Source of the DNA: a virus
Length of the DNA stretch: 64,000 nt
Strand: one strand, 5' to 3'
IMG/VR virus record: IMGVR_UViG_3300037111_000040
Span: 32,001 to 96,000 of that record
Below are positions 51,790-64,000 of the stretch, piece by piece. The translations under genes and the position numbers were made by a program. The first letter of the stretch is position 1. Each line of letters begins with the position of its first letter. The notes below the pieces were generated by a model. The model was not told where the DNA came from and did not search any database. It saw only the letters and a list, made by a program, of their open reading frames with translations.

Positions 51790-51796
51790 GCGCTTG

Positions 51797-51825: not shown

Positions 51826-51879
51826 GTGAATAAAAGATCGCAATTGACACAAAAACTGCTTTGTGAAACAGTATCGTCC

Positions 51880-52059: not shown

Positions 52060-52071
52060 CGGGAGGGACAA

Positions 52072-53189: not shown

Positions 53190-53338
53190 ATGACATGCAG
53201 CAAGTAGAGGATCAAGAGCAGGACCAAGATGGTGCCGATTCCAATGCCAGCGCCGCCGCCCGGACCCCACTGTGTATTACCCCAGTAGCCGCCGCCGAAA
53301 CCGAAAATCAACACCAACACGATAACGAGGATAAGCAT
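53186..53338 (-). CDS. Small membrane protein, DUF3309-like
   Basis: MLILVIVLVLIFGFGGGYWG...GIGTILVLLLILYLL; AGGAGG RBS; hand-translated. Confidence 0.7.
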   Translation of the reverse strand: MLILVIVLVLIFGFGGGYWGNTQWGPGGGAGIGIGTILVLLLILYLLHVI

Positions 53339-53348
53339 TTCGAACCTC

Positions 53349-53522
53349 CTAGCTGAAGTTTTCTTTTATCCACGCTGTGACGCGTTCGAGAATAGTCGGA
53401 TCGTGAACAATGACTTCGACGACCGGCGCGGGGTTTTGAACAATGATTTTTGTGACCGCTGTGTTTTTCTTTGTGGCTACAGGTTTCTTGACAACGATCT
53501 TGGGCTTCTTCGTCTTTGGCAC
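53349..53522 (-). CDS. Small hypothetical protein
   Basis: GGAGG RBS, GTG start, 57 aa; hand-translated. Confidence 0.55.
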   Translation of the reverse strand: MPKTKKPKIVVKKPVATKKNTAVTKIIVQNPAPVVEVIVHDPTILERVTAWIKENFS

Positions 53523-53539
53523 ATCATCCTCCTATGAGG

Positions 53540-53701
53540 TTAGTGACCGATGTGAAGCGGCAGGATTCCGTTGAACAGGATGGAGGCCACGAAGAACGCA
53601 AATGCAGCCCAACCGAGGCTCCAGCGCTGCGGAGGGTTCGGAACACCGAGCGCCGCAAGGATCGCTAAAACTAAAGCGAAAACGAGCAGGATCGTTGACA
53701 T
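53540..53701 (-). CDS. Small two-TM membrane protein
   Basis: GAGGTG RBS; MSTILLVFALVLAILAALG...LGWAAFAFFVASILF. Confidence 0.65.
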   Translation of the reverse strand: MSTILLVFALVLAILAALGVPNPPQRWSLGWAAFAFFVASILFNGILPLHIGH

Positions 53702-53926
53702 AGTTCACCTCAAGCCGATTATATGCTAAGATTGCGATGGATGGCTGTTCACTACTGAACATTTTGAGCACATGGCGGCGCAGTGTTTCCAGAAGCCCGA
53801 TTCGAATCCCCCCATCTGCGGGGTTCACAACGTTCGGCTTGTTCCAAGTGATGTGCCTTTCGATGGGAAGAAGATCGCCTGTCTGCGTTGTCCAGTGAGC
53901 CGATTCGTGGTGGACGAAGAAAAACG

Positions 53927-53955
53927 TTGACAACCCACCAATTCCATGGAATGAT
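53927..53955 (+). promoter_or_regulatory. Promoter of tRNA operon 1
   Basis: TTGACA-17-AATGAT with TG extension. Confidence 0.65.
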
Positions 53956-53964
53956 GGTTTCGCT

Positions 53965-54033
53965 ATGAAGACAGTGTGCCTCAGTTCGCTCTCCTCGTAT
54001 AGCTCATTACTGAGCGGTGGCGGGGGTTCGTGA
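53965..54033 (+). CDS. Leader peptide 1 MKTVCLSSLSSYSSLLSGGGGS (putative attenuator)
   Basis: Codons 5-17 are all Cys/Leu/Ser/Tyr, matching the downstream tRNAs. Confidence 0.8.
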   Translation: MKTVCLSSLSSYSSLLSGGGGS

Positions 54034-54062
54034 ACTGAGTCCAAAGTGGAATTCAGTCAGCG

Positions 54063-54087
54063 GCCTCCGAGAAATCGGGGGCTTTTT
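54063..54087 (+). terminator. Attenuator terminator before tRNA operon 1
   Basis: GCCTCCGA-GAAA-TCGGGGGC-TTTTT. Confidence 0.85.
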
Positions 54088-54094
54088 AGTTTGT

Positions 54095-54171
54095 GCCCGT
54101 GTACGCCAAATGGCAGAGCGCGACTTCTTAAAAAGGTCGGGATGGGGTTTCGAGTACCCCTGCGGGCACCA
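54095..54171 (+). tRNA. tRNA-Leu(TAA), short variable loop
   Basis: Cloverleaf, loop CTTAAAA, CCA end. Confidence 0.8.
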
Positions 54172-54172
54172 T

Positions 54173-54248
54173 GGATCGGTGGCGAAGTGTTAAACGCGGC
54201 AAGCTGCAACCTTGCTAATCGCTGGTTAAAATCCGGCCCGGTCCTCCA
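54173..54248 (+). tRNA. tRNA-Cys(GCA)
   Basis: Loop CTGCAAC, U73, CCA. Confidence 0.85.
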
Positions 54249-54256
54249 AGTTTCAC

Positions 54257-54333
54257 GCGCGAGTAGGCAAACAGGCAAAGCCGCCAGATCGAGGGTCTGG
54301 TGTTTGGGGATTCGATTTCCCCCTCGCGCACCA
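54257..54333 (+). tRNA. tRNA-Leu(GAG), short variable loop
   Basis: Loop TCGAGGG, A73, CCA. Confidence 0.8.
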
Positions 54334-54334
54334 C

Positions 54335-54414
54335 GGGCAGGTACGCAAATTTGGCAAAGCGGCAGTCTTCAGACGGCTGTGATTTTGTGGATTCGAATTC
54401 CACTCTGCCCACCA
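54335..54414 (+). tRNA. tRNA-Leu(CAG)
   Basis: Loop TTCAGAC, CCA. Confidence 0.8.
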
Positions 54415-54448
54415 AAGATTTGAACCATGATGGTATAATTGAACCATC

Positions 54449-55189
54449 ATGAAGTACACAAAGGAAATTCTCGAACAGGCCGTGAAAGAAAGTTTTTCAA
54501 TGGCAGACGTATTGAGAAAATGCGGAGCACCAAATCTGGCTGGTGGAACATCTCACCATGTTTCGAAGAGGATTAAGGAATATGGGATCAGCACAAGCCA
54601 CTTCATCGGAAAGCGTTGGCATTTAGGAAAGCCCAGTTTGAATCGAAGGGAAGCCGATTCATATTTGGTTTACCATGCAGACCTGAAAAGGCAGAGAGCA
54701 AAGGTGCTTGTGCGTTCGCTGCTCGACATTGGACGGCCATATAAGTGTTATGTTTGTGGGCTTCGCGAGTGGCGTGGAAAGAAACTGATTCTTGAGATAG
54801 AACACAAGGATGGAAACTTCCAAAACGATGTAGAGGAAAACCTAGAGTTTATTTGCCCCAATTGTCATTCCCAAACTCTTACATTTTCTCGCAGAAAGGA
54901 TTCGAAGCAATTCCTCCCACCTAAGCTCAGGCCAAAGAGGCAAGGGAGAGAGGTCAGGCACCCGTCTTCGGACGGTTACTGGAGAACAAGGGACAAGCCG
55001 CGTTTGAGAAAAGTGGACCGACCGAGCCCTGTAGAATTGCAATCCTTATTGCAAACGTTGCCGATGATAAAGATTGGTGAAAAATTCGGAGTCTCTGACA
55101 ACGCTGTTAGGAAGTGGATTCGGCGATATGGCATGGAGATGCCCAAGGTTTTCGGCAGGAGTCGTGGCAATAAGGATGTGCGCGTGTAG
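54449..55189 (+). CDS. HNH endonuclease with HTH modules
   Basis: 'CYVCG...LEIEHKDGN...NLEFICPNCHSQT'; C-terminal HTH 'IGEKFGVSDNAVRKW'. Confidence 0.88.
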   Translation: MKYTKEILEQAVKESFSMADVLRKCGAPNLAGGTSHHVSKRIKEYGISTSHFIGKRWHLGKPSLNRREADSYLVYHADLKRQRAKVLVRSLLDIGRPYKCYVCGLREWRGKKLILEIEHKDGNFQNDVEENLEFICPNCHSQTLTFSRRKDSKQFLPPKLRPKRQGREVRHPSSDGYWRTRDKPRLRKVDRPSPVELQSLLQTLPMIKIGEKFGVSDNAVRKWIRRYGMEMPKVFGRSRGNKDVRV

Positions 55190-55265
55190 CAAAACGGAAA
55201 AGCGCCGGTTTTAGGCACCGGAGGGGTAACACCCATTGCGAGTTCGAGTCTCGCCACGCGCACCA
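55180..55265 (+). tRNA. tRNA-Leu(TAG)
   Basis: Loop TTTAGGC, long variable arm, CCA. Confidence 0.85.
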
Positions 55266-55270
55266 AGTTT

Positions 55271-55348
55271 GCGGATGTGAAGGGAAACGGAATACCTCTG
55301 AAGCTCAAACCTTCAGGCTTATCGGTTCGAGGCCGATCATCCGCACCA
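55271..55348 (+). tRNA. tRNA-Leu(CAA), short variable loop
   Basis: Loop CTCAAAC, CCA. Confidence 0.8.
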
Positions 55349-55356
55349 AGTTTTAC

Positions 55357-55442
55357 GGAGCGCGGGCAGGATGGTAATGCAACGGCTTGCTAAGCCGCAC
55401 AACCGCGAGGTTGACAGTGTTCGATTCACTGGCGCTCCGCCA
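55357..55442 (+). tRNA. tRNA-Ser(GCT)
   Basis: Anticodon GCT, long variable arm, G73, CCA. Confidence 0.88.
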
Positions 55443-55451
55443 TATTTTTAC

Positions 55452-55538
55452 GGAAGGGTGAGCGGAACGGTATCGCCCCCGGCTGGAAACCGGGTCACGT
55501 GAAAGCGTGTGCAGGTTCGACTCCTGTCCCTTCCGCCA
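55452..55538 (+). tRNA. tRNA-Ser(GGA)
   Basis: Loop CTGGAAA, long arm, CCA. Confidence 0.88.
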
Positions 55539-55543
55539 GTTTT

Positions 55544-55631
55544 GGAAGCGTTGGGCATTTGGCAGGCCCACCCCGTTCGAAGCGGGACACACCTTCGGGT
55601 GTTGAGCGTTCGACTCGCTCCGCTTCCGCCA
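55544..55631 (+). tRNA. tRNA-Ser(CGA)
   Basis: Anticodon CGA, long arm, CCA. Confidence 0.85.
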
Positions 55632-55637
55632 AGTTTT

Positions 55638-55727
55638 GGATGGTTGGCAGAGTCTGGTTGATCGCGCTGGCCTTGAGTACCAGTAGACCGAAGGGTCTCG
55701 GGGGTTCGAATCCCTCACCATCCGCCA
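55638..55727 (+). tRNA. tRNA-Ser(TGA)
   Basis: Loop CTTGAGT, long arm, CCA. Confidence 0.85.
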
Positions 55728-55831
55728 GTTTGTAAGGGGGAGATTGACAGGTCGTGCAACAACGGTGAAGCAGTACCAGACTCCCCCTTTGGCGGCATCA
55801 TGAGGCCGTCCTGAACGGAAGTTTACCACGT

Positions 55832-55922
55832 GCGTTGGCTGGAGAGACGGTGGACTCTACCAGACTGTAAATCTGGATCATCTTCGATGACGCTGCAGGT
55901 TCAAATCCTGCCCAACGCACCA
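55832..55922 (+). tRNA. tRNA-Tyr(GTA)
   Basis: Loop CTGTAAA, long arm, CCA. Confidence 0.88.
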
Positions 55923-55947
55923 GAATTTCTGCGCTATACTCTGGCAC

Positions 55948-56331
55948 ATGCGAACGTATCGGTTTCAGACGACGTGGTCCCCGATGGACGATGACGATCT
56001 CCAGAATAACTTCGTGAGAATGAGGAAGAAATACTGGATAAAGCGTGGCCTTTGGATTCCAGAGAACGTGAAAACAGTTTTCCGGCACATACGTGACACA
56101 ACTGTGTGGCAGAACCATCCGTGTGGCCAACTTGATACTCTTCGAAGAGGCTACAAGATAGTTGTCTCTCCACCATTGGCGTTCATCTACTGTGTTGCGC
56201 ATATTACCCTCCTGCATGAAATGGCGCACCTTTATCGAATTGCGAACTTCAACGATCACAGTCACGGAGATGGGTTCAAGAAGGAGATCGACCGCCTCTA
56301 TGCCGCAGATGCATTTAGAAAGCTAATTTGA
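55948..56331 (+). CDS. SprT-like zinc metallopeptidase
   Basis: 'TLLHEMAH...HG..FKKE..RL'. Confidence 0.7.
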   Translation: MRTYRFQTTWSPMDDDDLQNNFVRMRKKYWIKRGLWIPENVKTVFRHIRDTTVWQNHPCGQLDTLRRGYKIVVSPPLAFIYCVAHITLLHEMAHLYRIANFNDHSHGDGFKKEIDRLYAADAFRKLI

Positions 56332-56334
56332 TTT

Positions 56335-56877
56335 ATGCTACACTCCTGTCATTCCGTGGCAACACGGAAATACTTACGCAGGAGAAAATCAATGAACCCC
56401 ATCAGCTTCCGTAACTCGAAGATCGTTTACTATGGCCCCCACACATGCGAAAATTGCGGCGTTTTCATCGTCAAGATGGGAACAGAGTGGGGCGGAAACG
56501 CGTTCACCAACCCAGAAGGTCCGATCTACCCAAACACAGAGTGGTTCCCACACGTTTGCGATCAGCAGTTAGTTCGCCAGCGCAAGGGCATGTCTGCGGC
56601 CAGCCGGGTCAGAGATGATTTCCCACTTGCACATGCGATCATGCTCAACAACGTCGGTCATGTGATTCTCGGGGAACCATGCAACCCACAACATAAGCAC
56701 GCCCTTGTTGTGAGTGAAAATAAGCACTACTATGACACGGAAGATGCGGCATGGGTTGGTGCTTTGAATCGGATTCTCAATGACTGGCCGACGTCGCACA
56801 TCGATCTGAGTATGTACGGGGTCCACACTCGATTGACAGATGATCTGGCTACCCTGCCACAGTGCCCGTCAGAGTAA
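56335..56877 (+). CDS. Hypothetical protein (probable start 56392)
   Basis: AGGAG RBS before 'MNPISF'; CxxC motif. Confidence 0.55.
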   Translation: MLHSCHSVATRKYLRRRKSMNPISFRNSKIVYYGPHTCENCGVFIVKMGTEWGGNAFTNPEGPIYPNTEWFPHVCDQQLVRQRKGMSAASRVRDDFPLAHAIMLNNVGHVILGEPCNPQHKHALVVSENKHYYDTEDAAWVGALNRILNDWPTSHIDLSMYGVHTRLTDDLATLPQCPSE

Positions 56878-56915
56878 TTCTTGCACGCGCGCAGGTTCCG
56901 TGGTACTGTAAATAG

Positions 56916-56992
56916 CGCGTGGTGGAGAAGCGGTCTATCTCGCCAGCCTCATAAGCTGGAGATCGAGGGTTCGAATCCCTCCCTCGCAACCA
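56916..56992 (+). tRNA. tRNA-Met(CAT), initiator-like
   Basis: C1:A72 mismatch, loop CTCATAA, CCA. Confidence 0.8.
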
Positions 56993-56998
56993 TTTTTT

Positions 56999-57073
56999 GC
57001 GGGCGTATCCTAACGGTCAGGTACTGCACTGTCTATGCAGTTCAAGCGGGTTCAACTCCCGTCGCTCGCGCCA
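56999..57073 (+). tRNA. tRNA-Asp(GTC)
   Basis: Loop CTGTCTA, G73, CCA. Confidence 0.82.
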
Positions 57074-57077
57074 TCTT

Positions 57078-57155
57078 GTCCTGTTCGTCTAGTCTGGCCA
57101 AGGACGTGACCCTCTCAAGGTCAAAACGGCGGTTCAAATCCGCTACGGGACGCCA
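57078..57155 (+). tRNA. tRNA-Glu(CTC)
   Basis: Loop CTCTCAA, CCA. Confidence 0.88.
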
Positions 57156-57161
57156 AGCTGT

Positions 57162-57241
57162 GGGGTAGTAGAAGGTGTCTGGAATCTTTCACCTGACTTT
57201 CACTCAGGAGTTCGCGGGTTCGAATCCCGTCTGCCCCACCA
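57162..57241 (+). tRNA. tRNA-Glu(TTC)
   Basis: Loop CTTTCAC, enlarged D loop, CCA. Confidence 0.8.
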
Positions 57242-57244
57242 TAT

Positions 57245-57802
57245 ATGAACGGTGACTCCTCAATTTGCAACAAATGTGGTAAGTCTGAGCCAGAGGTCAC
57301 ATTTGCGCTGCGCCTCGTAGGCGGGAGACAGTATCCGAAATATATTTGTCGAAGCTGTGATACTAAACGTAAACAAATTTGGCGGCGGTCGCGTGGAAGA
57401 ACAGAAACGATAAGGTTGTCAGCGATGATTCGCCAAAGGCGCGAAAGAACAGATCGAGAGCAGATACCGCGTGTGATAGTCGTTGACTGTCGGCGATCAG
57501 ATAAGAAAAAAGGATTTGTTTGTGACCTCACGATTGAGTTCGTGAAAGAATCCATAAAAGATGGTTGCTCTTATTGTGGGGAGATAAGAATACGCGTCGG
57601 CTTAGATCGCATCGACAATGCGTTGGGCCACTCTCAGAATAACGTCGTAGCGTGCTGTGGGCGCTGTAATTATCTCCGGAGAGATATGCCCTATGCGGCA
57701 TGGATGATGCTGGTTCCACAGGTGAGAAAAATCCGAGAATCTGGGGCTTTTGGAGACTGGGATGGGTTCGGCAGATATCGAAAGGGAAAAAATAATCTGT
57801 AA
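57245..57802 (+). CDS. HNH-type endonuclease
   Basis: 'CSYCG...GLDRIDN..GH...NVVACCGRCN'. Confidence 0.85.
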   Translation: MNGDSSICNKCGKSEPEVTFALRLVGGRQYPKYICRSCDTKRKQIWRRSRGRTETIRLSAMIRQRRERTDREQIPRVIVVDCRRSDKKKGFVCDLTIEFVKESIKDGCSYCGEIRIRVGLDRIDNALGHSQNNVVACCGRCNYLRRDMPYAAWMMLVPQVRKIRESGAFGDWDGFGRYRKGKNNL

Positions 57803-57844
57803 AACCTCTTGACAAATTCTGCGCTTTCCTTCACTATGCTGAAT

Positions 57845-58297
57845 ATGACGTAGATCGATTCCAAGACGTACTTTTACCTCTTCGTTCGGCAAGACCTCCC
57901 CATCGCTGCACAGATCGTGCAGACGAACCACGCGACATTTGATATGGCTTACACGCTCACCCAGAGCGCCGATCCTTCTACGCCTTCCATCGTGCTCATA
58001 GGCGTTCCCGACAAAAAAGCGCTTCACAAGGTAATCCAGAAGCTCAAGCTGAATCGCATCGAGTTCTCGGAGTTCCACGAGAGCGATGACGATCTGGGAC
58101 TCACTGCGGTCGCGACGATTCCTCTCGACGAGGATCAGCGCGCGGTGCTCCAGAACTACAAGCTTTGGAACGAAAACAATTTGACATACGCGCCTAGCTC
58201 AGTGGTCAGAGCGCCGTTGCAGTCTGACGGAGGTCCGAGGTTCGAATCCTTGGGCGCGTACCAACGGGCGGATAGCTCGACTATGCAGGAGGTGTGA
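57845..58297 (+). CDS. Peptidyl-tRNA hydrolase Pth2-like, interrupted by in-frame TAG at codon 3
   Basis: ATG ACG TAG ATC GAT... in frame with 'YLFVRQDL..AAQIVQTNHA...IVLIGV...E.D..LTAVAT.P...YKLW'. Confidence 0.75.
58188..58263 (+). tRNA. tRNA-like element with aberrant anticodon loop (GCAGTCT; nominal AGT)
   Basis: Perfect acceptor, D (TAGCTCAGTGG..AGAGC) and T (GGTTCGAATCC) arms and CCA; no U33 or purine 37. Confidence 0.7.
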
Positions 58298-58592
58298 ATC
58301 CTCCGCCGCCCGGAACGTAGTTCTTTGTGTTGAGGTCGGGAACGTCTTTAAGGTCAACCGAGACGAACCGTTCTTCGAACCGCGTGTCGAACAACGTCAG
58401 GCTGAACTTGTAGGTGGACTTTTTGTCTTCCCGGAGCTTCTTGATGTAGGTGTTGAAGCCGCCGATGGTGTCGTCGACACAACTTCCCATTGAGCCAGAT
58501 TTGTCGAGAACAAAGTTAATCAGAACGCTTCCGCGATTTTCTTTGCCCTTTGGCTTTGATTCTTTTTTGGTTTTCTTTGTGGACTTGGCCAT
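58281..58592 (-). pseudogene. N-terminal fragment of a vWA-domain protein
   Basis: MIDAS 'FVLDKSGSM', 'TIGGFN'; ends at 'YVPGGG' where 'T.L.DA' would follow. Confidence 0.65.
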
Positions 58593-58836
58593 GGATTTCT
58601 CCTCGCGAGATCGTCGCGGCTGTGGTTGAAATGTTTTCTGGGACCGTGTACGTCATAGTCGCGCTGACCCCGAGAGATTCAGTGATACTCCTGCCCGGTT
58701 CACGGCGGCGATTGTAAACGTCATTGAGGTAGGACGGCGACACGCCCAATGTCTGGGCAAAGTCCTTCTGGCTTTTCTCGCCCTGAAGCGTCTTCATGAT
58801 TTCGAGGAGGCCATCGATGTTCGTCACCGTGTGCAT
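58516..58836 (-). CDS. XRE-family HTH protein
   Basis: 'SQKDFAQTLGVSPSYLNDVYNRRREPG'. Confidence 0.75.
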   Translation of the reverse strand: MHTVTNIDGLLEIMKTLQGEKSQKDFAQTLGVSPSYLNDVYNRRREPGRSITESLGVSATMTYTVPENISTTAATISRGEIHGQVHKENQKRIKAKGQRKSRKRSD

Positions 58837-58932
58837 AAATTCGAGAATACGCGGATTTGCGTATTTGTCAAGAAGGACACCGCAGATGAAGAATTTATTG
58901 ACTACCGGCCCGCGAGGCGCTACCGTTCTGGT

Positions 58933-59166
58933 ATGGCAAGTACCGCCTTTCAGCCGATCATCGACCTTGTCAAGGGCTGGTCTGACAAGTTGCAGGGCGC
59001 TGAGGATTTCATCAATAAGCTTCCGGTTCCCGGAAAATCCTCCACCATGAAAACCAGCAGGGGCAAGCCCCCCCTCGCGACCTCGTGGTACTACTACGGC
59101 AAGCAACAGCCGCCGCGCCCCGGCGAGCAGAAGGCCGTGGCCCGCAAGCGCATCCCAAAAAAGTGA
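58933..59166 (+). CDS. Small basic protein ending ARKRIPKK
   Basis: Leaderless ATG downstream of a TTGACT promoter-like site. Confidence 0.55.
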   Translation: MASTAFQPIIDLVKGWSDKLQGAEDFINKLPVPGKSSTMKTSRGKPPLATSWYYYGKQQPPRPGEQKAVARKRIPKK

Positions 59167-59182
59167 TAAACCGATGAAGTGA

Positions 59183-59887
59183 TTAAAGGTACTTTAGATT
59201 ACATTCATCGCAATGCCATGTGGTTGATGGGCTTTTGCAGGCGACACACAGCCCTTTCATCCGAATGGCGCGAGTTCGCTCGCTTGTTCGTTTGGCGTTA
59301 GCTTCGCGACAGAGATCGCATCTACATCTGTGATAGGTATAGGTCGTGGTGACACCATGTATTGGCTTTGGTTTTACTCGTGGAGGCAAGGATGCCCGCG
59401 AGAGAGCATCACAAGAGAAGCCAAGCAATCCGGCTATTTGCCTCACCGTTTTCCCGTCATTTCGCAGCGATTCTATTTCAAGGATGTTGGCTCGAATCTT
59501 CTCTGAATTAGATTGACGAGCGGAAGATGAACCGACAATCTGGCGCACATATTCTCTTGTAAAACCGTATTTATTCCCAATTTTTTGCAGTGTCCAACCA
59601 TCCCTACGGAGGACTTTCATTTCCTCTCTGCGCGGATCGGCAGGTTTGGGTGGTATGGAGGCCCCAAGATCGTAGAATCCTGCCAACTCTCTGTTTAATC
59701 CCGGCCCATTATCAACGTGCCACTTGCTGTGACAAAATAAGCAAAGCCAACGCACATCTAGTGGTCTTGCATAATCGTCGTGGTGGGCGACAAGCCGTCG
59801 CTGTGCCCCACATTCTTCGCATAAGAGCGCGATTGTAATGCTTCCACGCTCAACCGCTGCTTTGACGAGTAGGTGAACGCGGGCCAT
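59183..59887 (-). CDS. HNH-like endonuclease with HTH and Zn-finger modules
   Basis: 'CEECG...AHHDDY..PLDVRWLC..CH..WH'; 'TLQKIGNKYGFTREYVRQI'; 'CRCDLC'. Confidence 0.8.
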   Translation of the reverse strand: MARVHLLVKAAVERGSITIALLCEECGAQRRLVAHHDDYARPLDVRWLCLFCHSKWHVDNGPGLNRELAGFYDLGASIPPKPADPRREEMKVLRRDGWTLQKIGNKYGFTREYVRQIVGSSSARQSNSEKIRANILEIESLRNDGKTVRQIAGLLGFSCDALSRASLPPRVKPKPIHGVTTTYTYHRCRCDLCREANAKRTSERTRAIRMKGLCVACKSPSTTWHCDECNLKYL

Positions 59888-59903
59888 TTTTTTCAAAAAC
59901 CTC

Positions 59904-59932
59904 TTGACAGTTTTCCTGATTGATTATATCGT
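59904..59932 (+). promoter_or_regulatory. Promoter of tRNA operon 3
   Basis: TTGACA-17-TATCGT, 7 nt before the GTG of the leader. Confidence 0.75.
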
Positions 59933-59939
59933 GGAAAAC

Positions 59940-60011
59940 GTGAGAACCCGATTCCATAACGCAGCGACACAGCCGACGCAACCAGCCGGTAATAGCGGCG
60001 GTGCGGACTAG
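59940..60011 (+). CDS. Leader peptide 2 MRTRFHNAATQPTQPAGNSGGAD (putative attenuator)
   Basis: Codons 2-18 are all R/T/F/H/N/A/Q/P/G, matching the downstream tRNAs. Confidence 0.8.
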   Translation: MRTRFHNAATQPTQPAGNSGGAD

Positions 60012-60053
60012 GGGTCTCAGACAGATTTTTTCCTAACACAGATGGAAAAACTT

Positions 60054-60093
60054 GAGACCCCCAGAACCGAAAGGAACTGGGGGTTCTCGTTTG
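60054..60093 (+). terminator. Attenuator terminator before tRNA operon 3
   Basis: ACCCCCAG..CC-GAAA-GG..CTGGGGGT-TCTCGTTT; left arm can alternatively pair with TAGGGGTCTCAG. Confidence 0.7.
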
Positions 60094-60102
60094 TGGGGAT
60101 GT

Positions 60103-60177
60103 TCAAGGGTAGCTCAATGGTAGAGCCCACGGCTGTTAACCGTGTCGTTGTGGGTCCGACTCCCACCCCTTGAGCCA
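60103..60177 (+). tRNA. tRNA-Asn(GTT)
   Basis: Loop CTGTTAA, G73, CCA. Confidence 0.88.
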
Positions 60178-60187
60178 GTTTAGAAGT

Positions 60188-60263
60188 TGGCTCTTCGTTC
60201 AATGGTTGAGGACCTTCGCCTCTGGAGCGAATGATCTGGGTTCGAGTCCCGGAGAGCCAGCCA
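60188..60263 (+). tRNA. tRNA-Gln(CTG)
   Basis: Loop CTCTGGA, U1-A72, CCA. Confidence 0.88.
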
Positions 60264-60275
60264 AGTTTGAGTTGT

Positions 60276-60349
60276 TCCCGGTTCGTTCAGTGGCAGGACG
60301 TGGGCCTTTGGAACCCAACACGGGAGTTCGATTCTCCCACCGGGTGCCA
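60276..60349 (+). tRNA. tRNA-Gln(TTG)
   Basis: Loop CTTTGGA, CCA. Confidence 0.85.
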
Positions 60350-60350
60350 C

Positions 60351-60424
60351 GCGGGGTTGATGTAGCGGTAGCATCGAAGTGTGCCACACTTTGCGCATCG
60401 GTTCGAACCCGATACCCCGCTCCA
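60351..60424 (+). tRNA. tRNA-Gly(GCC)
   Basis: Loop GTGCCAC, U73, CCA. Confidence 0.85.
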
Positions 60425-60503
60425 CTTTGGAGGAAGAAGAATGAAGATCGATTTGAACGCCGACATGCAGCATGTTTTCGCACGGTTGGCGAAAGGATTT
60501 CGA

Positions 60504-60578
60504 GCACCGTTAGTTGAGTCGGCACAACACGACCCTCGTAACGTCGAAGCCCCGGTTCGATTCCGGGACGGTGCTCCA
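60504..60578 (+). tRNA. tRNA-Thr(CGT)
   Basis: Loop CTCGTAA, CCA. Confidence 0.82.
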
Positions 60579-60611
60579 CAGATTGACGAGAGGTAGAAGA
60601 AAGGGGATTCC

Positions 60612-61157
60612 ATGGCACTCATACGGAGAGCGGTACTACAACTTAACGCGTCGTATGAGCCGCTGAGAATCGTCAGCGCGCGAAAGGCGCTCACGCTCAT
60701 AACCAAGGGCGTTGCCGTGGTGGAGGTGCCAACCAGCATCCAAGTCCACAAGGGAATCTACCTTCCTTCCGTCATCCGTTTGCGGCACTACAGGAACGTC
60801 CCGCACCGGATGCAGCAGGTTTCGAGGAAGAACATTTTCATTCGCGACGGTTTCAGGTGCATGTACTGCGGCGCGAAGAAGAACAACGGGGCAGAGCTTG
60901 AACTGGAGCACGTGATCCCGAGAAGCAGAGGTGGTAAGCAGTCATGGGACAACCTTGTTGCTGCCTGTTCCCCGTGCAATAGACGTAAGAACAACCGGAC
61001 GCCGGAAGAGGCTGGAATGAAGTTGATCCATAGGCCGCTGCCCGCGAATATCTTTACAAGCCGCTTCATTTTGAAACAGCTTGGCAGAGAAGTTGAGGAA
61101 TGGGGAAAGTTCCTTTTTTCTGATTCCGAAGGCGAAACGAGGTTACAATTTAGGTAA
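60612..61157 (+). CDS. HNH endonuclease (McrA-like)
   Basis: 'LNASYEPL','PSVIRL','RD.F.C.YCG','EHVIPRSRGG..SWDNLVAAC..CN.RK'. Confidence 0.9.
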   Translation: MALIRRAVLQLNASYEPLRIVSARKALTLITKGVAVVEVPTSIQVHKGIYLPSVIRLRHYRNVPHRMQQVSRKNIFIRDGFRCMYCGAKKNNGAELELEHVIPRSRGGKQSWDNLVAACSPCNRRKNNRTPEEAGMKLIHRPLPANIFTSRFILKQLGREVEEWGKFLFSDSEGETRLQFR

Positions 61158-61160
61158 AAG

Positions 61161-61883
61161 ATGCGCAAACTCGTCGGCAAAATTTACTTAATTCGTAATC
61201 TCGCGAACGGCAAGGGGTACGTCGGCCAGACCACGAAACAAACTGTGTGGATAAGGTTCAACCAGCACAAATACGAGGTCAAGCGCGGAAGCAATCTGCC
61301 CATACATAGGGCGATGAGAAAGTGGGGAGTTGAAAACTTCACAGTTATCGAAGTCGCCTCGTGTGATCCACTTTTGCTCGACGATCTCGAAAAGCACTTC
61401 ATCAAATTCTACAAAACCTACATCACAAGCGGTCGCGGCTATAACAGGACGGCAGGAGGGTACAGCGGATTCAACAGAGACGGAATCAGGATTCTTACAG
61501 AAAAGGGAAGCTCGACACTTTCAGATGTCCATAAGGGAAACTCTTATGCCAAGGGGCACAAAGTATCGGAAGAAGGAAGAGCGAGAATGGCCGAGGCTGC
61601 TAGAAATAGAGGACCGGTAACGCGCTCGCCAGAGTTGAGGGCCAGAATCTCGGCCACCTTGAAAGGACACCCTGTTGCAGAGGAATCGAGAGCGAAGATG
61701 TCAGCGTCGCACAAGGGGGTAAAAGTCGGCTACCGGAAACGCAGGCCGATGTCGGATGAGCACAAGGCGAAGATTTCCGCGAGTATGCGTGGAAAGAGGA
61801 AAACTCCGGAGTCCATAGCCAAGAGACTTGCGACTTGTGCTTTGCTTAACACGGGTGACACAAGATACCAGTTTGTTAACTAA
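61161..61883 (+). CDS. GIY-YIG homing endonuclease with NUMOD3 repeats
   Basis: 'KIYLIRNLANGKGYVGQT','GYN.T.GG', repeated 'SEE.RAKMS.S.KG'. Confidence 0.9.
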   Translation: MRKLVGKIYLIRNLANGKGYVGQTTKQTVWIRFNQHKYEVKRGSNLPIHRAMRKWGVENFTVIEVASCDPLLLDDLEKHFIKFYKTYITSGRGYNRTAGGYSGFNRDGIRILTEKGSSTLSDVHKGNSYAKGHKVSEEGRARMAEAARNRGPVTRSPELRARISATLKGHPVAEESRAKMSASHKGVKVGYRKRRPMSDEHKAKISASMRGKRKTPESIAKRLATCALLNTGDTRYQFVN

Positions 61884-61927
61884 CATAAATGTTCGTTATC
61901 GTCTCCAAATTTTGCTATACTCGGGAG

Positions 61928-62653
61928 ATGAAAAACGAAGAAAGGCGAAAAGCTGCTCGGAGGCGGTGGTACTACAGGAACAGGAAATCCAAGAAGGTGT
62001 TGAAGTCGCGAATTCCTGACGTACCGCTGCTTTCTGTTGAGGAACGTAAGACTATTAGCAGGGCGAATGCTGTGGTTGCGCTGGCGAAAGCTCATGCTAA
62101 AGCAAAAATCAAATCGGATCAGATACAACGTAAGAGAGAAGAGCGTCGATGCGTAATTTGCGGCGGTCCTGTTCTCGTTAAGAATCTGAAAGCAAAATCG
62201 TGCTCGGTGAGATGCGCGAAGATCGCCAGACGAAAAAGAAGAGAGAATTGGGAAAAGGCTTGCGCGTACTGCGGTTCCACATGTTCTGGTCAGAACAAGT
62301 ATTGCGACGACTGCAACAAAAGCCAAATCTACAAGATGGCTCAGTCTACTGAAGATGTAAGCGATTCAAAGGCTGTCAAGCGTCTGGTGCTTCGGAGAAG
62401 AGGACACAGATGCGAAGGATGCGGTTTAGATCAGTGGATGGGAAAAGCCATCCCGCTTGAACTTCACCATGTGGACGGGGATTCAGAGAATAACAAAGAT
62501 GAGAACCTGCAACTTCTCTGTCCTAATTGCCACGCTTTGACTCCAACGTTTCGTAATCGAAACAAAAGGAAGGCGAGCGAAAGAAGAAGAAAGATAAGAA
62601 AGACGAGAGAGTTTGCCGAAGTAGCTCAAGAGGAAGTAGCGGCGGTTTTGTGA
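61928..62653 (+). CDS. HNH endonuclease
   Basis: 'CEGCG...LELHHVDGD..NN..ENLQLLCPNCH..T'. Confidence 0.88.
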   Translation: MKNEERRKAARRRWYYRNRKSKKVLKSRIPDVPLLSVEERKTISRANAVVALAKAHAKAKIKSDQIQRKREERRCVICGGPVLVKNLKAKSCSVRCAKIARRKRRENWEKACAYCGSTCSGQNKYCDDCNKSQIYKMAQSTEDVSDSKAVKRLVLRRRGHRCEGCGLDQWMGKAIPLELHHVDGDSENNKDENLQLLCPNCHALTPTFRNRNKRKASERRRKIRKTREFAEVAQEEVAAVL

Positions 62654-62690
62654 ACCGCTGATGGGATTTCGAGTATCCCCTTCGGCCCCA
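62615..62690 (+). tRNA. tRNA-His(GTG) copy 1 (no encoded G-1)
   Basis: Loop TTGTGAA, C73, CCA. Confidence 0.75.
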
Positions 62691-62773
62691 AGCTCACTGG
62701 GACACGCGGAATCTCCCGCTTACGGGCGGGAGGGTGCTACCAAGCTATAACGTGTCCCGGTAGCGCGATTCAT

Positions 62774-62852
62774 GGCGGTGTTGGCAGAGCGGTCTATTGC
62801 GCGTGTCTGTGGCACACGTATTACATCGGTTCGAATCCGATACGCCGCCCCA
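62774..62852 (+). tRNA. tRNA-His(GTG) copy 2 (G-1:C73)
   Basis: Loop CTGTGGC, CCA. Confidence 0.85.
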
Positions 62853-62861
62853 AAGTTTTAC

Positions 62862-62937
62862 GGGCCTATAGCTCATTTAGGAGAGCGCCGCACTTGCAAT
62901 GCGGAGGCGGTCGGGGCGGAGCCGACTAGGTCCACCA
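62862..62937 (+). tRNA. tRNA-Ala(TGC)
   Basis: G3:U70, loop CTTGCAA, atypical T loop. Confidence 0.85.
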
Positions 62938-63032
62938 AGTTTGACTGGTGCCTCACCTGTAACGACGTAAGGGTGAAGGCGTCACGGGTCGCACGTCGCA
63001 AGGTAGAGGCCCGCTAAGTTTTTAGGAGAAAT

Positions 63033-63281
63033 ATGCGTCAATTCATAAAGCGATCCGAGCGCGGTTTTTCTCAGCGAAGACATGAGGGAGATTTGCGTAG
63101 GAGAAAGCAGTTCGCAAGCAAGATCGCGGATTGTTTCTTTGCTGAGAGTCCTTTCCAGCGGATGCTCATGAGGTGTGGACGCGCTCGGAAGCTGATGCAG
63201 GCATATCGCGCGAAGAAGATGATTCGCAGGCCGAGCAACTTTCGGCAGGATGTTTGGCAAGAGTTTTGTCGATTGAGCTAG
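63033..63281 (+). CDS. Arg-rich hypothetical protein
   Basis: AGGAG RBS; stop lies inside tRNA-Phe. Confidence 0.45.
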   Translation: MRQFIKRSERGFSQRRHEGDLRRRKQFASKIADCFFAESPFQRMLMRCGRARKLMQAYRAKKMIRRPSNFRQDVWQEFCRLS

Positions 63282-63343
63282 TGCAGTCATAGCGTCCGCC
63301 TGAAGAGCGGAAGAACTCGGGGCAGCACCGGGAGTCGACACCA
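63268..63343 (+). tRNA. tRNA-Phe(GAA)
   Basis: Loop CTGAAGA, atypical T loop, CCA. Confidence 0.78.
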
Positions 63344-63344
63344 T

Positions 63345-63421
63345 CGGGGAGGGGCGCGGTCAGGTAGCGCTTCGGTCTCGGGTACCGAAGGTCATGGGTT
63401 CGAATCCCATCTCCCCGACCA
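63345..63421 (+). tRNA. tRNA-Pro(CGG)
   Basis: Loop CTCGGGT, CCA. Confidence 0.85.
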
Positions 63422-63434
63422 TTTTGGAAGTCAC

Positions 63435-63511
63435 ACGGGTGTAGCGAAGTCTGGAAACGCACCTGCTTTGGGAGCAGGGGATCGGGGGTTCAAATCCCTC
63501 CACCCGTACCA
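63435..63511 (+). tRNA. tRNA-Pro(TGG)
   Basis: Loop TTTGGGA, CCA. Confidence 0.88.
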
Positions 63512-63521
63512 TTTTGAATGA

Positions 63522-63598
63522 GGGCCTATAGCGTAGTTGGATGACGCGGCAGACTACGAATCTGTTATACGGGGGTTCGAATCCCTCTAGGCCCTCCA
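63522..63598 (+). tRNA. tRNA-Arg(ACG)
   Basis: Loop CTACGAA, CCA. Confidence 0.88.
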
Positions 63599-63617
63599 TA
63601 AAAAGCGCAGAATTTGC

Positions 63618-63646
63618 TTGACGCGTTTTTGGAACCGTTGTAAGGT
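63618..63646 (+). promoter_or_regulatory. Sigma70-like promoter for the ncRNA repeat cluster
   Basis: TTGACG-17-TAAGGT. Confidence 0.55.
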
Positions 63647-63677
63647 TAGAGACGTTGCGTTTTTGAGATTGAGTTTT

Positions 63678-64000
63678 CGCTGACTGTTTGGCTTACATGC
63701 GCCTCAAAGCGAGGCATTTCAATTGAGATGAAACGAACCGGGTGCGATTCCCGGATGTCCCGAAAGGGTTGCCTGACGACTACAGCGGAGAAAAAAATTG
63801 GCTTGACTGATTTGCATACATGCTTTGAGAGCAGGAACACCATGCAGATCGACTACAAGCCATAAAGTTTGTGCTGACTGACTTGCTTACATGTCCTTTG
63901 GAGACCGAGGTCGGAGGTTCGAATCCTTCATCCTCCACCATCAAAGAATTGACGGGGGATTAGCTCAGCGGTAGAGCGCGTAAAATAGCAGATCGACTAC
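63678..64000 (+). ncRNA. Three tandem Y-RNA-like ncRNAs; the third has a permuted tRNA module (YrlA-like), truncated by window end
   Basis: Units share 5' (C/T)TGACTG..GC.TACATG and 3' GC....CGACTAC ends; unit 3 has T arm and acceptor before the D arm. Confidence 0.6.

What the first reader, a model, noticed from the sequence alone, without database searches (positions are those of the whole stretch)
53927..63598. Phage tRNA operons gated by codon-matched leader-peptide attenuators (candidate new system)
Seen: the tRNA array is split into operons by amino acid. Two operons begin with the same architecture: sigma70 promoter, leaderless 22-23 aa ORF, alternative hairpins, intrinsic terminator, first tRNA. 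The sensing stretch of leader 1 uses only C/L/S/Y, and its operon encodes only Leu, Cys, Ser and Tyr tRNAs. The sensing stretch of leader 2 uses only R/T/F/H/N/A/Q/P/G, and its operon encodes exactly those nine amino acids. The two stretches share no amino acid. Known: ribosome-mediated attenuation controls amino-acid biosynthesis operons (trp, his, leu, ilv), and phage tRNAs can offset host tRNA depletion by anticodon nucleases. Inference: the phage polls many host isoacceptors at once and transcribes replacement tRNAs only when one fails, with negative feedback. I am not aware of attenuation being described for tRNA genes themselves.
Basis: partly seen in the sequence, partly recalled or inferred. 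Interest (0 to 1): 0.96.

Follow-up and report, generated by a model that had tools for sequence, protein, structure and literature searches.

The report
Leader-peptide attenuators gating phage tRNA operons
An uncultured peat phage puts a tiny test gene, written in the codons that the following tRNA genes read, plus a switchable transcription stop in front of its tRNA blocks, so it probably makes each tRNA set only when ribosomes decode those codons slowly.

Summary
Two units in the window, and a third 6.9 kb beyond its end, share one build: sigma-70-type promoter, start codon 7-9 nt after the -10 box, a 22-29 codon ORF, competing hairpins, a terminator hairpin, then tRNA genes. Leader 1 has 13 consecutive C/L/S/Y codons before Leu/Cys/Ser/Tyr tRNAs. 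Leader 2 has 17 consecutive codons for nine amino acids before tRNAs for those nine; Phe holds only through a cloverleaf Phe(GAA)-like gene that ARAGORN and Rfam missed. Leader 3 samples 12 of 12 tRNAs of its block.

Four related uncultured phage lineages keep the units. Over 12 leaders, 123 of 129 downstream tRNAs have a cognate codon in their own leader. Over the 11 tabulated, the match is frame-specific (76% against 38-39% out of frame). It survives peptide divergence to 37-50% identity in leader families 1 and 2.

Best reading (0.6): trp/thr-type ribosome-mediated attenuators that sense decoding speed. The switch itself is not shown. Equilibrium folding favours the terminators, the antiterminators lack covariation support, and there are no usable expression data. 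The anticodon-nuclease trigger is conjecture. Eight literature searches found no such control of tRNA genes. This scan's earlier AI notes report the same kind on other phage DNA.

The parts
53927..53955 (+). Promoter 1 (TTGACA-17 nt-AATGAT, TG before the -10 box)
   Evidence: 10 of 12 matches. The ATG follows 9 nt after the -10 hexamer. The same layout stands in three relatives.
53965..54033 (+). Leader ORF 1, 22 codons (MKTVCLSSLSSYSSLLSGGGGS). Codons 5-17 are C/L/S/Y only.
   Evidence: 13 of 13 codons are readable by cluster-1 tRNAs, and 10 of 11 cluster-1 tRNAs are sampled. The other two frames contain stops.
54021..54069 (+). Predicted antiterminator 1: strand 54021-54031 (last Gly/Ser codons and stop) pairs with 54060-54069 (left arm of the terminator)
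   Evidence: constrained fold of the transcript cut before the right arm; the left arm is 85-93% paired while the A site is in the matched stretch and 14-27% at codons 17-18. This helix was not put through a covariation count.
54062..54093 (+). Terminator 1: 9-pair GC-rich hairpin plus a T tract
   Evidence: (fold z -4.61; 0 of 200 shuffles fold as well).
54095..55922 (+). tRNA cluster 1: Leu(TAA), Cys(GCA), Leu(GAG), Leu(CAG), HNH gene 54449-55189, Leu(TAG), Leu(CAA), Ser(GCT, GGA, CGA, TGA), Tyr(GTA)
   Evidence: The HNH match is weak in Pfam.
56881..57241 (+). Comparison block without a leader: promoter-like TTGCAC-17-TACTGT, then directly Met(CAT), Asp, Glu x2
   Evidence: The promoter was read by eye; one search did not list it. 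There is no ORF or terminator between promoter and tRNA.
59904..59932 (+). Promoter 2 (TTGACA-17 nt-TATCGT)
   Evidence: 10 of 12 matches. The GTG at 59940 follows 7 nt after the -10 hexamer.
59940..60011 (+). Leader ORF 2, 23 codons (M RTRFHNAATQPTQPAGN SGGAD, GTG start, TAG stop)
   Evidence: all 11 ARAGORN tRNAs of cluster 2 have a cognate codon. 20 of 22 residues are in the set once the Phe-like gene is counted.
60004..60069 (+). Predicted antiterminator 2: strand 60004-60019 (spans the stop codon) pairs with 60053-60069 (left arm of the terminator)
   Evidence: the left arm is 74-91% paired while the A site is in codons 2-19 and 24% at the stop; 78.1% of cells paired against 69.7% in shuffles (31 of 500 reach it), so not significant at three sequences.
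60054..60096 (+). Terminator-like hairpin 2 (13 pairs) with a weak tail GTTTGT
   Evidence: Not listed by the scan. Covariation is not significant with 3 sequences.
60103..63598 (+). tRNA cluster 2: Asn, Gln x2, Gly, Thr(CGT), HNH / GIY-YIG / HNH genes, Thr(TGT), His, Ala, an 82-aa ORF, Phe-like, Pro x2, Arg(ACG)
63268..63343 (+). tRNA-Phe(GAA)-like cloverleaf with a non-canonical T-loop
   Evidence: 13 of 13 match to the anticodon arm of the Phe tRNAs of G002 and G004; alignment; cloverleaf is the minimum-energy fold, though z is only -0.97. ARAGORN and Rfam did not call it.

Best explanation
These are ribosome-mediated (leader-peptide) transcription attenuators placed in front of tRNA genes.

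Proposed mechanism:
1. Host sigma-70 RNA polymerase starts at or within a few bases of the ATG/GTG, so the transcript is leaderless and a ribosome loads as soon as the 5' end emerges.
2. The ribosome reads a panel of codons. Nearly every tRNA of the downstream block has at least one cognate codon in it.
3. If all are decoded quickly, the ribosome reaches the last codons and the stop. There it covers the strand that would otherwise pair with the left arm of the terminator. The terminator hairpin forms and transcription ends before the first tRNA.
4. If any panel codon is decoded slowly because its charged tRNA is scarce, the ribosome stalls upstream. The antiterminator forms first, and the polymerase reads into the tRNA genes.
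5. The new tRNAs then speed decoding of the leader and shut the unit off again.

Shown: the parts, their order, the codon-to-tRNA match, its frame specificity and its conservation.
Inferred: leaderless initiation, the switch, the direction of control and the feedback.
For: 1. Same build three times in one genome. Promoter, ORF, hairpins, terminator and tRNAs stand at window 53927-54094, at 59904-60102, and at genome 102868-103061, outside the window. Fold z-scores are -4.61, -2.85 and -3.45.

2. Codon match in this genome. 10 of 11, 11 of 11 and 12 of 12 tRNAs of the block have a cognate codon in their own leader. Own-cluster residue match is 14/21, 19/22 and 21/28. Against the other clusters it is 1-11 of 21-28.

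3. Chance. See (run lengths; codon-level simulation: 7e-6, 3.3e-5, 5.3e-4).

4. Frame specificity over 11 leaders. 197/259 residues match in frame, 97/248 and 93/248 in the other frames, and 78/259 antisense. Frame +1 has stops in 11 of 11 leaders and frame +2 in 8 of 11.

5. Relatives. Four further lineages have anchor proteins 60-73% identical. One more was found through a terminator pattern. They carry 9 more leaders. Over all 12 leaders, 123 of 129 tRNAs are sampled. Leader-1 peptides of the three divergent lineages are 10-11 of 22-23 identical, yet each keeps a pure C/L/S/Y run of 12-15 codons.

6. Presence and absence go together. G001 has neither the Asn...Ala block nor leader 2.

7. 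Start-codon position. Spacings were read by eye. All 12 promoters have a 17-nt spacer, and in 8 of 12 a GTG begins exactly 7 nt after the -10 box.

8. Geometry. In 9 of 9 leaders tested, the left arm of the terminator is 59-93% paired in the transcript cut before the right arm while the A site is in the matched stretch. The minimum (9-46%) falls in the last 8 codons.

9. Terminator 3 has covariation support. 93.2% of 44 cells pair, 5 of 13 pairs show compensatory change, and 0 of 500 shuffles reach the score.

10. Contigs from RNA libraries bridge terminator 2 into tRNA-Asn and tRNA-Gln without a difference: X2 at 59982-60210 and X1 at 60016-60197.
Against: 1. There is no experiment and no strand- or end-resolved expression data. 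The RNA-library contigs may be carried-over DNA.

2. Equilibrium folding of the full leaders favours the terminator whatever the ribosome position in several cases. G000 leader 1 stays at 70-97% and G002 leader 1 at 66-98%. Only 6 of 11 leaders were computed before the script stopped. Any read-through must therefore rest on kinetic trapping.

3. The antiterminators have no covariation support. For unit 3, 76.9% of cells pair against 76.3% in shuffles (384 of 500 reach it). For unit 2, 31 of 500 shuffles reach it. Alignments hold only 3-4 sequences and their register is uncertain.

4. In one search the left arm is also mostly paired with no ribosome at all (35-88%). At the stop codon itself it is still 24-66% paired. 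The contrast is moderate.

5. The match is imperfect.
- 6 of 129 tRNAs are unsampled.
- Leader 3 has three TCC (Ser) codons with no Ser tRNA in its block.
- Leader 2 has AGA and ACC, which tRNAs of other blocks read.
- G002 leader 2 lacks a His codon although His(GTG) is present.
- G003 leader 1 keeps CTC although Leu(GAG) is absent.
- G004 leader 2 keeps four Ala codons although ARAGORN calls no Ala tRNA in that block.

6. The tail of terminator 2 is weak (GTTTGT), and in G004 it is not T-rich at all.

7. Nine of 12 starts are GTG on a leaderless RNA, and the host is unknown. Whether the host translates such RNAs efficiently cannot be said.

8. The five lineages are related, so the 12 leaders amount to about three independent inventions plus their maintenance.
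Confidence: 0.6

Rival explanations
1. The leaders are translated and codon-matched, but the output is not terminator/antiterminator choice. Translation of the panel might instead set Rho access, RNase processing or stability of the tRNA precursor. It might also act as a timer that depends on the phage's own tRNAs, possibly with the opposite sign (fast decoding gives more tRNA).
For: The match and its frame specificity require translation but not a particular output. The antiterminators lack covariation support. Equilibrium folds favour the terminator. The T tract of unit 2 is weak, and absent in G004.
Against: All 12 units keep a GC-rich hairpin just before the first tRNA or an inserted homing-endonuclease gene. 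Eleven of them have a T-containing tail; G004's tail is not T-rich. Terminator 3 shows compensatory changes. The stop codon always lies 25-45 nt upstream of the hairpin, on or beside the strand that can pair with its left arm. It does not lie on the hairpin itself. That placement fits the classical negative logic.
Confidence: 0.2
2. These are untranslated structured 5' leaders of tRNA precursors, such as insulating or processing hairpins. The open frame and its composition are by-products of sequence constraints.
For: The regions are strongly structured. There is no Shine-Dalgarno sequence. Nine of 12 starts are GTG. The host is unknown, so leaderless translation is an assumption.
Against: The match exists only in one frame: 76% against 38-39% and 30%. 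That frame is the only one open in all 11 leaders. Composition is kept while peptide and nucleotide sequences diverge (ORF nucleotide identity 43-47 of 69-72 for leader 1). Each leader matches its own block and not the others. The start codon sits at the predicted transcription start in 8 of 12.
Confidence: 0.1
3. Chance coincidence, or the small ORFs encode functional micro-peptides unrelated to the tRNAs.
For: Short ORFs are plentiful: 202 ORFs of 20 aa or more in 11 kb. Six-frame runs as long as those of leaders 2 and 3 occur 10 and 5 more times elsewhere in the genome.
Against: There are three units in the one slot where they are predicted, each matching its own block. They are kept in four other lineages. 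The peptide sequence is poorly conserved (37-50% identity for leader families 1 and 2), which argues against a peptide function.
Confidence: 0.04

Closest known systems
Multivalent leader-peptide attenuators of enterobacterial amino-acid operons (thrL for Thr+Ile; ilvL of ilvGMEDA for Ile/Val/Leu; also trpL, hisL, leuL, pheL). Recalled from textbook knowledge, not from a call.
   Same: A promoter-proximal short ORF holds regulatory codons. Overlapping hairpins let a ribosome stalled on those codons favour an antiterminator. An intrinsic terminator stands before the first structural gene. More than one amino acid is sensed.
   Different: The controlled genes here are tRNA genes, not biosynthetic or synthetase genes. 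The panel holds up to nine amino acids and samples up to 12 isoacceptors, mostly once or twice each, instead of runs of one codon. The start is leaderless, mostly GTG. The units are phage-borne. No Rfam leader family matched.
Leaderless polycysteine short ORFs acting as cysteine-responsive attenuators in mycobacteria (bioRxiv 10.1101/834739). Only the title and the start of the abstract were seen, in the listing.
   Same: A leaderless short ORF at the 5' end of a polycistronic transcript serves as the sensor through ribosome stalling on particular codons.
   Different: It senses one amino acid and controls protein-coding operon genes. No codon panel is matched to downstream tRNA genes.
T-box riboswitches (Rfam RF00230)
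   Same: A terminator/antiterminator decision in a 5' leader reports on the state of a specific tRNA.
   Different: T-boxes bind the uncharged tRNA directly, need no translation, sense one tRNA and control synthetase or amino-acid genes. No T-box match at E up to 1 in the Rfam scans.
Inducible long tRNA array (trn operon) of Anabaena sp. PCC 7120 (PMC8421152, PMC10272220). Passages were read through term searches.
   Same: A supernumerary, horizontally moving tRNA array is silent by default and switched on when translation is impaired.
   Different: [quoted passage not shown] 'attenuat' and 'terminator' occur 0 times in both main texts; 'leader' and 'leader peptide' each occur 0 times in the text searched for it. 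Their supplements, which hold the 5'-RACE maps, were not seen.
Phage tRNAs as replacements for host tRNAs cut by defence nucleases (eLife 2023, PMC10264068; Nat Commun 2026, PMC13096335). Only titles and abstract starts were seen, in the listing.
   Same: They offer a reason why a phage would want tRNAs on demand.
   Different: As far as the listing shows, those papers concern the tRNAs themselves and their amplification, not a sensor that gates their transcription.

Membership tests
Ribosome-mediated leader-peptide transcription attenuators | Short ORF directly after the promoter and before the first structural gene | tested here: met
   ORFs of 20-29 codons, counting the start, begin 5-11 nt after the -10 box in 12 of 12 units. 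Only this frame is open in all 11 leaders tabulated.
Ribosome-mediated leader-peptide transcription attenuators | Regulatory codons in the leader correspond to the product of the controlled genes | tested here: met
   123 of 129 downstream tRNAs have a cognate codon in their leader. 197 of 259 residues are in the set in frame, against 38-39% out of frame.
Ribosome-mediated leader-peptide transcription attenuators | Intrinsic terminator between the leader and the first gene | tested here: met
   Unit 1. Unit 3: (compensatory changes in 5 of 13 pairs). Unit 2 has a 13-pair hairpin with a weak tail that one search did not list. So the feature is met for units 1 and 3 and marginal for unit 2.
Ribosome-mediated leader-peptide transcription attenuators | Antiterminator mutually exclusive with the terminator, whose upstream strand is masked by a ribosome at the end of the leader | tested here: inconclusive
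   Per-sequence folds fit: 9 of 9 leaders show the minimum of left-arm pairing in the last 8 codons. But there is no covariation support, and equilibrium folds favour the terminator.
Ribosome-mediated leader-peptide transcription attenuators | Read-through rises when the cognate charged tRNA is limiting | not testable with these tools
   This needs reporter assays, in vitro assays or Term-seq. The RNA-library contigs cannot show ends, strand or level.
Ribosome-mediated leader-peptide transcription attenuators | Sequence or structure homology to a curated leader family (Rfam Trp, His, Leu, Thr leaders) | tested here: not met
   No such match at E up to 1 in window 50000-64000 or in the leader-3 locus. 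It works like the class but is not a homologue of its known members.
T-box riboswitch | Specifier loop and T-box motif recognised by the Rfam model | tested here: not met
   No T-box hit.
Repressor-controlled tRNA array (Anabaena trn/TrcR type) | [quoted passage not shown] | not tested
   I ran no repeat search on the promoters and no search for a TrcR homologue. The defining features are taken from passages of PMC8421152 and PMC10272220.

The most novel reading that the evidence does not exclude
Tailed phages from unrelated lineages carry a general, so far undescribed sensor. A leaderless 'codon panel' polls the host's charged-tRNA pool isoacceptor by isoacceptor. It releases the matching block of phage tRNAs only when one of them fails, for example after attack by an anticodon nuclease or tRNA-cleaving defence. 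The product closes a negative feedback loop. tRNA genes would then be sorted into operons by what can be sensed together.
Probability: 0.3. Interest if true: 0.92.

Novelty: new variant of a known kind. Interest (0 to 1): 0.82.

Why it matters
Why phages carry tRNA genes has been argued for about fifty years, with codon compensation set against replacement of tRNAs destroyed by host defence.

A sensor that reads decoding speed for exactly the codons that a tRNA block serves would show that the phage treats these tRNAs as an on-demand supply. It would extend the classic attenuation mechanism from amino-acid metabolism to the tRNA pool itself.

It would also give a compact natural part: about 130-160 nt that reports the availability of up to a dozen isoacceptors. 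The units are small and self-contained, so the idea can be tested directly in cell-free systems with defined tRNA sets, even though the phage is uncultured.

Tried and rejected
Searches and tests that led nowhere or were set aside:

- blastn of 53900-60200 against 50,697 phage records gave 115 records. All matches were tRNA-sized, and 0 covered 80% of the query. There is no cultured relative.
- PHROGs on 9 large ORFs gave 1 weak major-head match and 8 with nothing. The lineage and its host remain unknown.
- The 127-aa SprT-like ORF as anchor gave 1 distant locus without an array.
- Of 6 loci found with the 180-aa ORF, only 1 (L008) carries arrays.
- The single metagenome scan returned two 1.2-kb contigs and a duplicate of G002.
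- The pattern scan of genome contigs gave 13 hits in MAGs of many phyla, and 0 of 13 have a tRNA nearby. I take them as chance matches, so they give no host lead.
- Relaxed ARAGORN proposed an intron-bearing 'Phe' at genome 95649-95762 among many doubtful calls. I rejected it in favour of the cloverleaf at window 63268-63343.
- The equilibrium terminator probability stopped with an error after 6 of 11 leaders. It did not show a clean switch, and I report it as evidence against.
- The automatic terminator finder failed for 2 of 11 leaders (G002 and G003, unit 3). Their hairpins are visible.
- Covariation counts for the antiterminators and for terminator 2 were not significant.
- Read laying: stretches without cover (for example 57324-58179) are not used as evidence. 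Contigs cannot show ends, strand or level. Loose ends at 59998 in X3 and X4 look like leader-2 variants of further relatives, but they could not be fetched.
- I recalled that E. coli pheV or pheU might have a Phe-rich leader. A search found nothing, and the 1985 paper could not be opened. The K-12 pheV upstream region shows a promoter running straight into the tRNA with no ORF. The recollection is dropped.
- My working label 'peptidyl-tRNA-hydrolase-like' for ORF 57944-58186 has no Pfam support and is dropped.
- The mini-ORF ATG-ACG-TAG after the promoter at about 57810 is ATG-CAT-TAG in G001. I do not read it as a Thr sensor.

Full report
WHAT IS THERE

The window is bases 32001-96000 of a single-contig virus record of 121,714 bp, 54.5% G+C. 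ARAGORN finds 27 tRNA genes in the window and 36 in the genome, all on the + strand. They fall into these blocks:
- Cluster 1 (54095-55922): Leu x6, Cys, Ser x4, Tyr.
- Met-Asp-Glu-Glu (56916-57241).
- Thr(AGT) at 58188.
- Cluster 2 (60103-63598): Asn, Gln x2, Gly, Thr x2, His, Ala, Pro x2, Arg.
- Cluster 3, beyond the window (genome 103062-105271).

HNH and GIY-YIG homing-endonuclease genes lie between the tRNAs. The phage has no close cultured relative. Eight of 9 large ORFs match no PHROG.

THE TWO UNITS OF THE FINDING

Unit 1:
- Promoter-like site 53927-53955 (10 of 12, with TG).
- ATG 9 nt after the -10 box.
- ORF 53965-54033, MKTVCLSSLSSYSSLLSGGGGS.
- Terminator-like hairpin 54062-54083 followed by TTTTTAGTTTG.
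- tRNA-Leu at 54095.

Unit 2:
- Promoter-like site 59904-59932 (10 of 12).
- GTG at 59940, 7 nt after the -10 box.
- A 23-codon ORF ending at TAG 60009-60011.
- A 13-pair hairpin at 60054-60088 with the weak tail GTTTGT. The scan did not list it.
- tRNA-Asn at 60103.

Both regions fold better than shuffles, with z of -4.61 and -2.85.

Codons 5-17 of leader 1 are all C/L/S/Y, and each is readable by a cluster-1 anticodon. 10 of 11 cluster-1 tRNAs are sampled; Leu(CAA) is not.

Codons 2-18 of leader 2 are R T R F H N A A T Q P T Q P A G N. All 11 ARAGORN tRNAs of cluster 2 have a cognate codon. AGA and ACC are read only by tRNAs of other blocks, and GCC by none under conservative wobble rules.

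THE PHE QUESTION

Neither ARAGORN nor Rfam calls a Phe tRNA. Three relatives have Phe(GAA) in the same block: just before Pro(CGG) in G003 and G004, and before Pro(TGG) in G002.

A short-word BLAST of those genes against this genome hit 13 of 13 bases of the anticodon arm at window 63297-63309. The 76 nt at 63268-63343 fold as a cloverleaf with loop CUGAAGA, a 7-pair acceptor stem and CCA. The T-loop is non-canonical, and the fold z-score is unremarkable at -0.97.

I accept it as a Phe(GAA)-like gene of uncertain function.

A THIRD UNIT OUTSIDE THE WINDOW

At genome 102868-103061 the same build recurs. I found it, before I read the scan's own note on it.
- Promoter TTGCAA-17-TAGGCT, then 7 nt, then GTG.
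- A 29-codon ORF, MQIRSKSVRTSMTGTKRVIWGVVREGWDD.
- Hairpins and a terminator with TTTTTGTTGTTT.
- tRNA-Trp follows.
- Fold z is -3.45.

With ARAGORN at a lower threshold, the block is Trp, Met(CAT), Ile(TAT), Lys(CTT, TTT), Arg(TCT, CCT, CCG), Val(TAC), Thr(GGT), Ile(GAT) and, distally, Gly(TCC). All 12 have a cognate codon in the leader: ATA, AGG, AAA, GTG, AGA, ACC, ATG, GGG/GGA, AAG, CGG, ATT and TGG. Three TCC (Ser) codons are unmatched.

The Met-Asp-Glu-Glu block has a promoter-like site, read by eye, that runs straight into the tRNA. It has no leader.

IS IT MORE THAN CHANCE?

- Simulation with this genome's amino-acid usage: in-set runs as long as observed (13, 17, 13) arise in 0 of 2,000,000, 1.8e-5 and 9.2e-5 of random ORFs of the same length.
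- Codon-level simulation of in-set counts: 7e-6, 3.3e-5 and 5.3e-4.
- Genome-wide, in all six frames: such runs occur 1, 11 and 6 times among 243,424 codon positions, the leaders included. Enrichment alone is therefore not unique for sets 2 and 3.
- What is improbable is that each run sits in the roughly 100-nt slot before its own block.
- Each leader matches its own block (14/21, 19/22, 21/28) and not the others (1-11 of 21-28).
- The match exists only in the proposed frame: 197/259 in frame, 97/248 and 93/248 in the other frames, 78/259 antisense, over 11 leaders.
- Frame +1 holds stops in 11 of 11 leaders and frame +2 in 8 of 11.

RELATIVES

Protein anchors and two DNA patterns brought in four further lineages from uncultured viral contigs:
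- G001, 105 kb.
- G002, 53 kb. A near-identical contig and a metagenome duplicate were counted once.
- G003, 138 kb.
- G004, a 7.6-kb contig.

They carry 9 more leaders. Each has a 17-nt promoter spacer and a start codon 5-11 nt after the -10 box. Across all 12 leaders, 8 have a GTG at exactly 7 nt (spacings read by eye).

Leader 1 in four genomes:
- MKTVCLSSLSSYSSLLSGGGGS
- MKTLSLSSCLYLSSSEGWVD
- MKLLSLLSSSLYSCSLSGMEARM
- MKTLCLSSLSSYSSLLSGSGGS

The three divergent versions are 10-11 of 22-23 identical, yet each keeps a pure C/L/S/Y run of 12-15 codons.

Leader 2 in four genomes keeps the R/T/F/H/N/A/Q/P/G make-up in a different order. Leader 3 is the most conserved, at 14-19 of 28-29 identical.

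Over all 12 leaders, 123 of 129 downstream tRNAs are sampled (my sum of the rows).

G001 has neither the Asn...Ala block nor leader 2.

Codon-level covariation is not strict:
- G002 leader 2 has no His codon although His(GTG) is present.
- G002 leader 3 has AGA although a CTA-anticodon tRNA stands where the other lineages have Arg(TCT).
- G003 leader 1 keeps CTC without Leu(GAG).
- G004 keeps four Ala codons although its Ala-type tRNA has an altered anticodon loop.

DOES THE RNA SWITCH?

All 12 units have a GC-rich hairpin before the first tRNA or before an inserted homing-endonuclease gene.

Terminator 3 has clear covariation. 93.2% of 44 cells pair, 5 of 13 pairs show compensatory change, and 0 of 500 shuffles reach the score.

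The stop codon lies 25-45 nt upstream of the hairpin. It sits on or beside a strand that can pair with the left arm of the terminator: 54021-54031 with 54060-54069, and 60004-60019 with 60053-60069.

I folded transcripts cut before the right arm, with 28 nt masked by a ribosome.
- The left arm is 59-93% paired while the A site is in the matched stretch.
- The minimum (9-46%) falls in the last 8 codons in 9 of 9 leaders tested.
- In the other 2 of 11 the script did not recognise the terminator.

Against this:
- Equilibrium folds of the full leaders keep the terminator at 70-97% (G000 unit 1) or 66-98% (G002 unit 1) at every ribosome position. Only 6 of 11 leaders were computed.
- With no ribosome the left arm is also mostly paired, at 35-88%.
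- The antiterminators gain no support from covariation: 384 of 500 and 31 of 500 shuffles reach the observed pairing.
- Terminator 2 is not significant at three sequences.

So the geometry fits a classical attenuator that works by kinetic trapping, but the switch is not demonstrated.

EXPRESSION

Five RNA-library runs from peat hold parts of the stretch. I laid four of them (X1-X4).

Two contigs without a difference bridge terminator 2 into tRNA-Asn and tRNA-Gln: X2 at 59982-60210 and X1 at 60016-60197. Contigs show no ends, strand or level, and DNA carry-over cannot be excluded. This is at most a weak hint of read-through.

WHAT IS KNOWN

Rfam gives no T-box and no Trp, His, Leu or Thr leader here.

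Eight full-text searches listed no paper that describes leader-peptide attenuation of tRNA genes. I judged them by titles and abstract starts.

The nearest items:
- The Anabaena trn array is induced by translational stress through promoter repeats and the repressor TrcR. I read passages. 'attenuat' and 'terminator' occur 0 times in both main texts; 'leader' and 'leader peptide' each occur 0 times in the text searched for it.
- A preprint on leaderless polycysteine ORFs as attenuators in mycobacteria (listing only).

A recollection that E. coli pheV has a leader was checked and dropped.

The scan's own earlier notes report the same kind of unit on other phage genomes, and one on an archaeal operon. 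These are AI notes. I did not test them, and they do not enter my score.

VERDICT

The best explanation is a ribosome-mediated attenuator that reads a codon panel matched to the downstream tRNAs and so couples tRNA transcription to decoding speed (confidence 0.6). It works like thrL or ilvL but is not a homologue of any curated leader family. It controls a new class of genes, so I class it as a new variant of a known kind.

The link to anticodon nucleases is conjecture.

Noticed in passing
window 63618-64000, continuing to genome 96560 (L001): Behind its own promoter-like site (TTGACG-17-TAAGGT, read by eye) lies a string of tRNA-like modules with T-arm and CCA ends. They are joined by repeated motifs (CGACTACA... 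and CTGACTG-N-TACATG). Rfam gives only a weak YrlA (Y RNA-like) match of 27.9 bits against a cut-off of 69. A 528-aa ORF with a weak vWA match follows (L041:1209-2795). G001 and G004 keep the array or the ORF.
   Followed up: partly
window 63268-63343: A Phe(GAA)-like cloverleaf with a non-canonical T-loop (GGCAGCA) overlaps the 3' end of ORF 63033-63281. ARAGORN and Rfam miss it.
   Followed up: yes
genome 103226-103319 (L002); also in G002 and G003: A long tRNA-like gene between Met(CAT) and Lys(CTT) has TAT in what looks like a 9-nt anticodon loop. ARAGORN calls it Ile(TAT) in G000 only at a lowered threshold, and 'Val(AAC)' in G003. G001 has a standard Ile(TAT) instead.
   Followed up: partly
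L013:10451-10524 and L014:1168-1243 (G002): Two tRNAs with anticodon CTA (amber-reading). One stands where the other lineages have Arg(TCT). Several leaders end in TAG.
   Followed up: no
L042:3237-3323 (G004): The slot where Ala(TGC) stands in G000, just after His, holds a tRNA-like gene with a G3:U70 pair in the acceptor stem but an altered anticodon loop (read by eye as CCTACAA). It might carry Ala to another codon.
   Followed up: no
L025:1066-1305 (G003): Three Arg tRNAs (TCT, CCT, CCG) have the anticodon stem starting at base 15 and a long extra arm. Rfam finds them but ARAGORN does not.
   Followed up: partly
L008:11361-11773 (G001) and L021:9465-9890 (G003): Permuted tmRNA genes (tags AEDNALPMAA and AEPFALPMAA) lie inside the leaderless Met-Asp-Glu block of two relatives. 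ARAGORN calls none in this genome.
   Followed up: no
L008:18755-19222 (G001); L024:180-830 (G003): Homing-endonuclease genes are inserted between the attenuator and the first tRNA. In G001 a 5' fragment of the old tRNA-Trp is left in front of the HNH gene, and a complete new Trp follows it.
   Followed up: partly
window 57811-57850; L008:12837-12880: The promoter of the 81-aa ORF that runs into tRNA-Thr(AGT) is followed by a three-codon ORF. It is ATG-ACG-TAG here and ATG-CAT-TAG in G001.
   Followed up: no
window 59998-60038, runs X3 and X4: RNA-library contigs match only this part of leader 2 and then continue with different letters. They probably come from further relatives with other leader-2 versions.
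   Followed up: no
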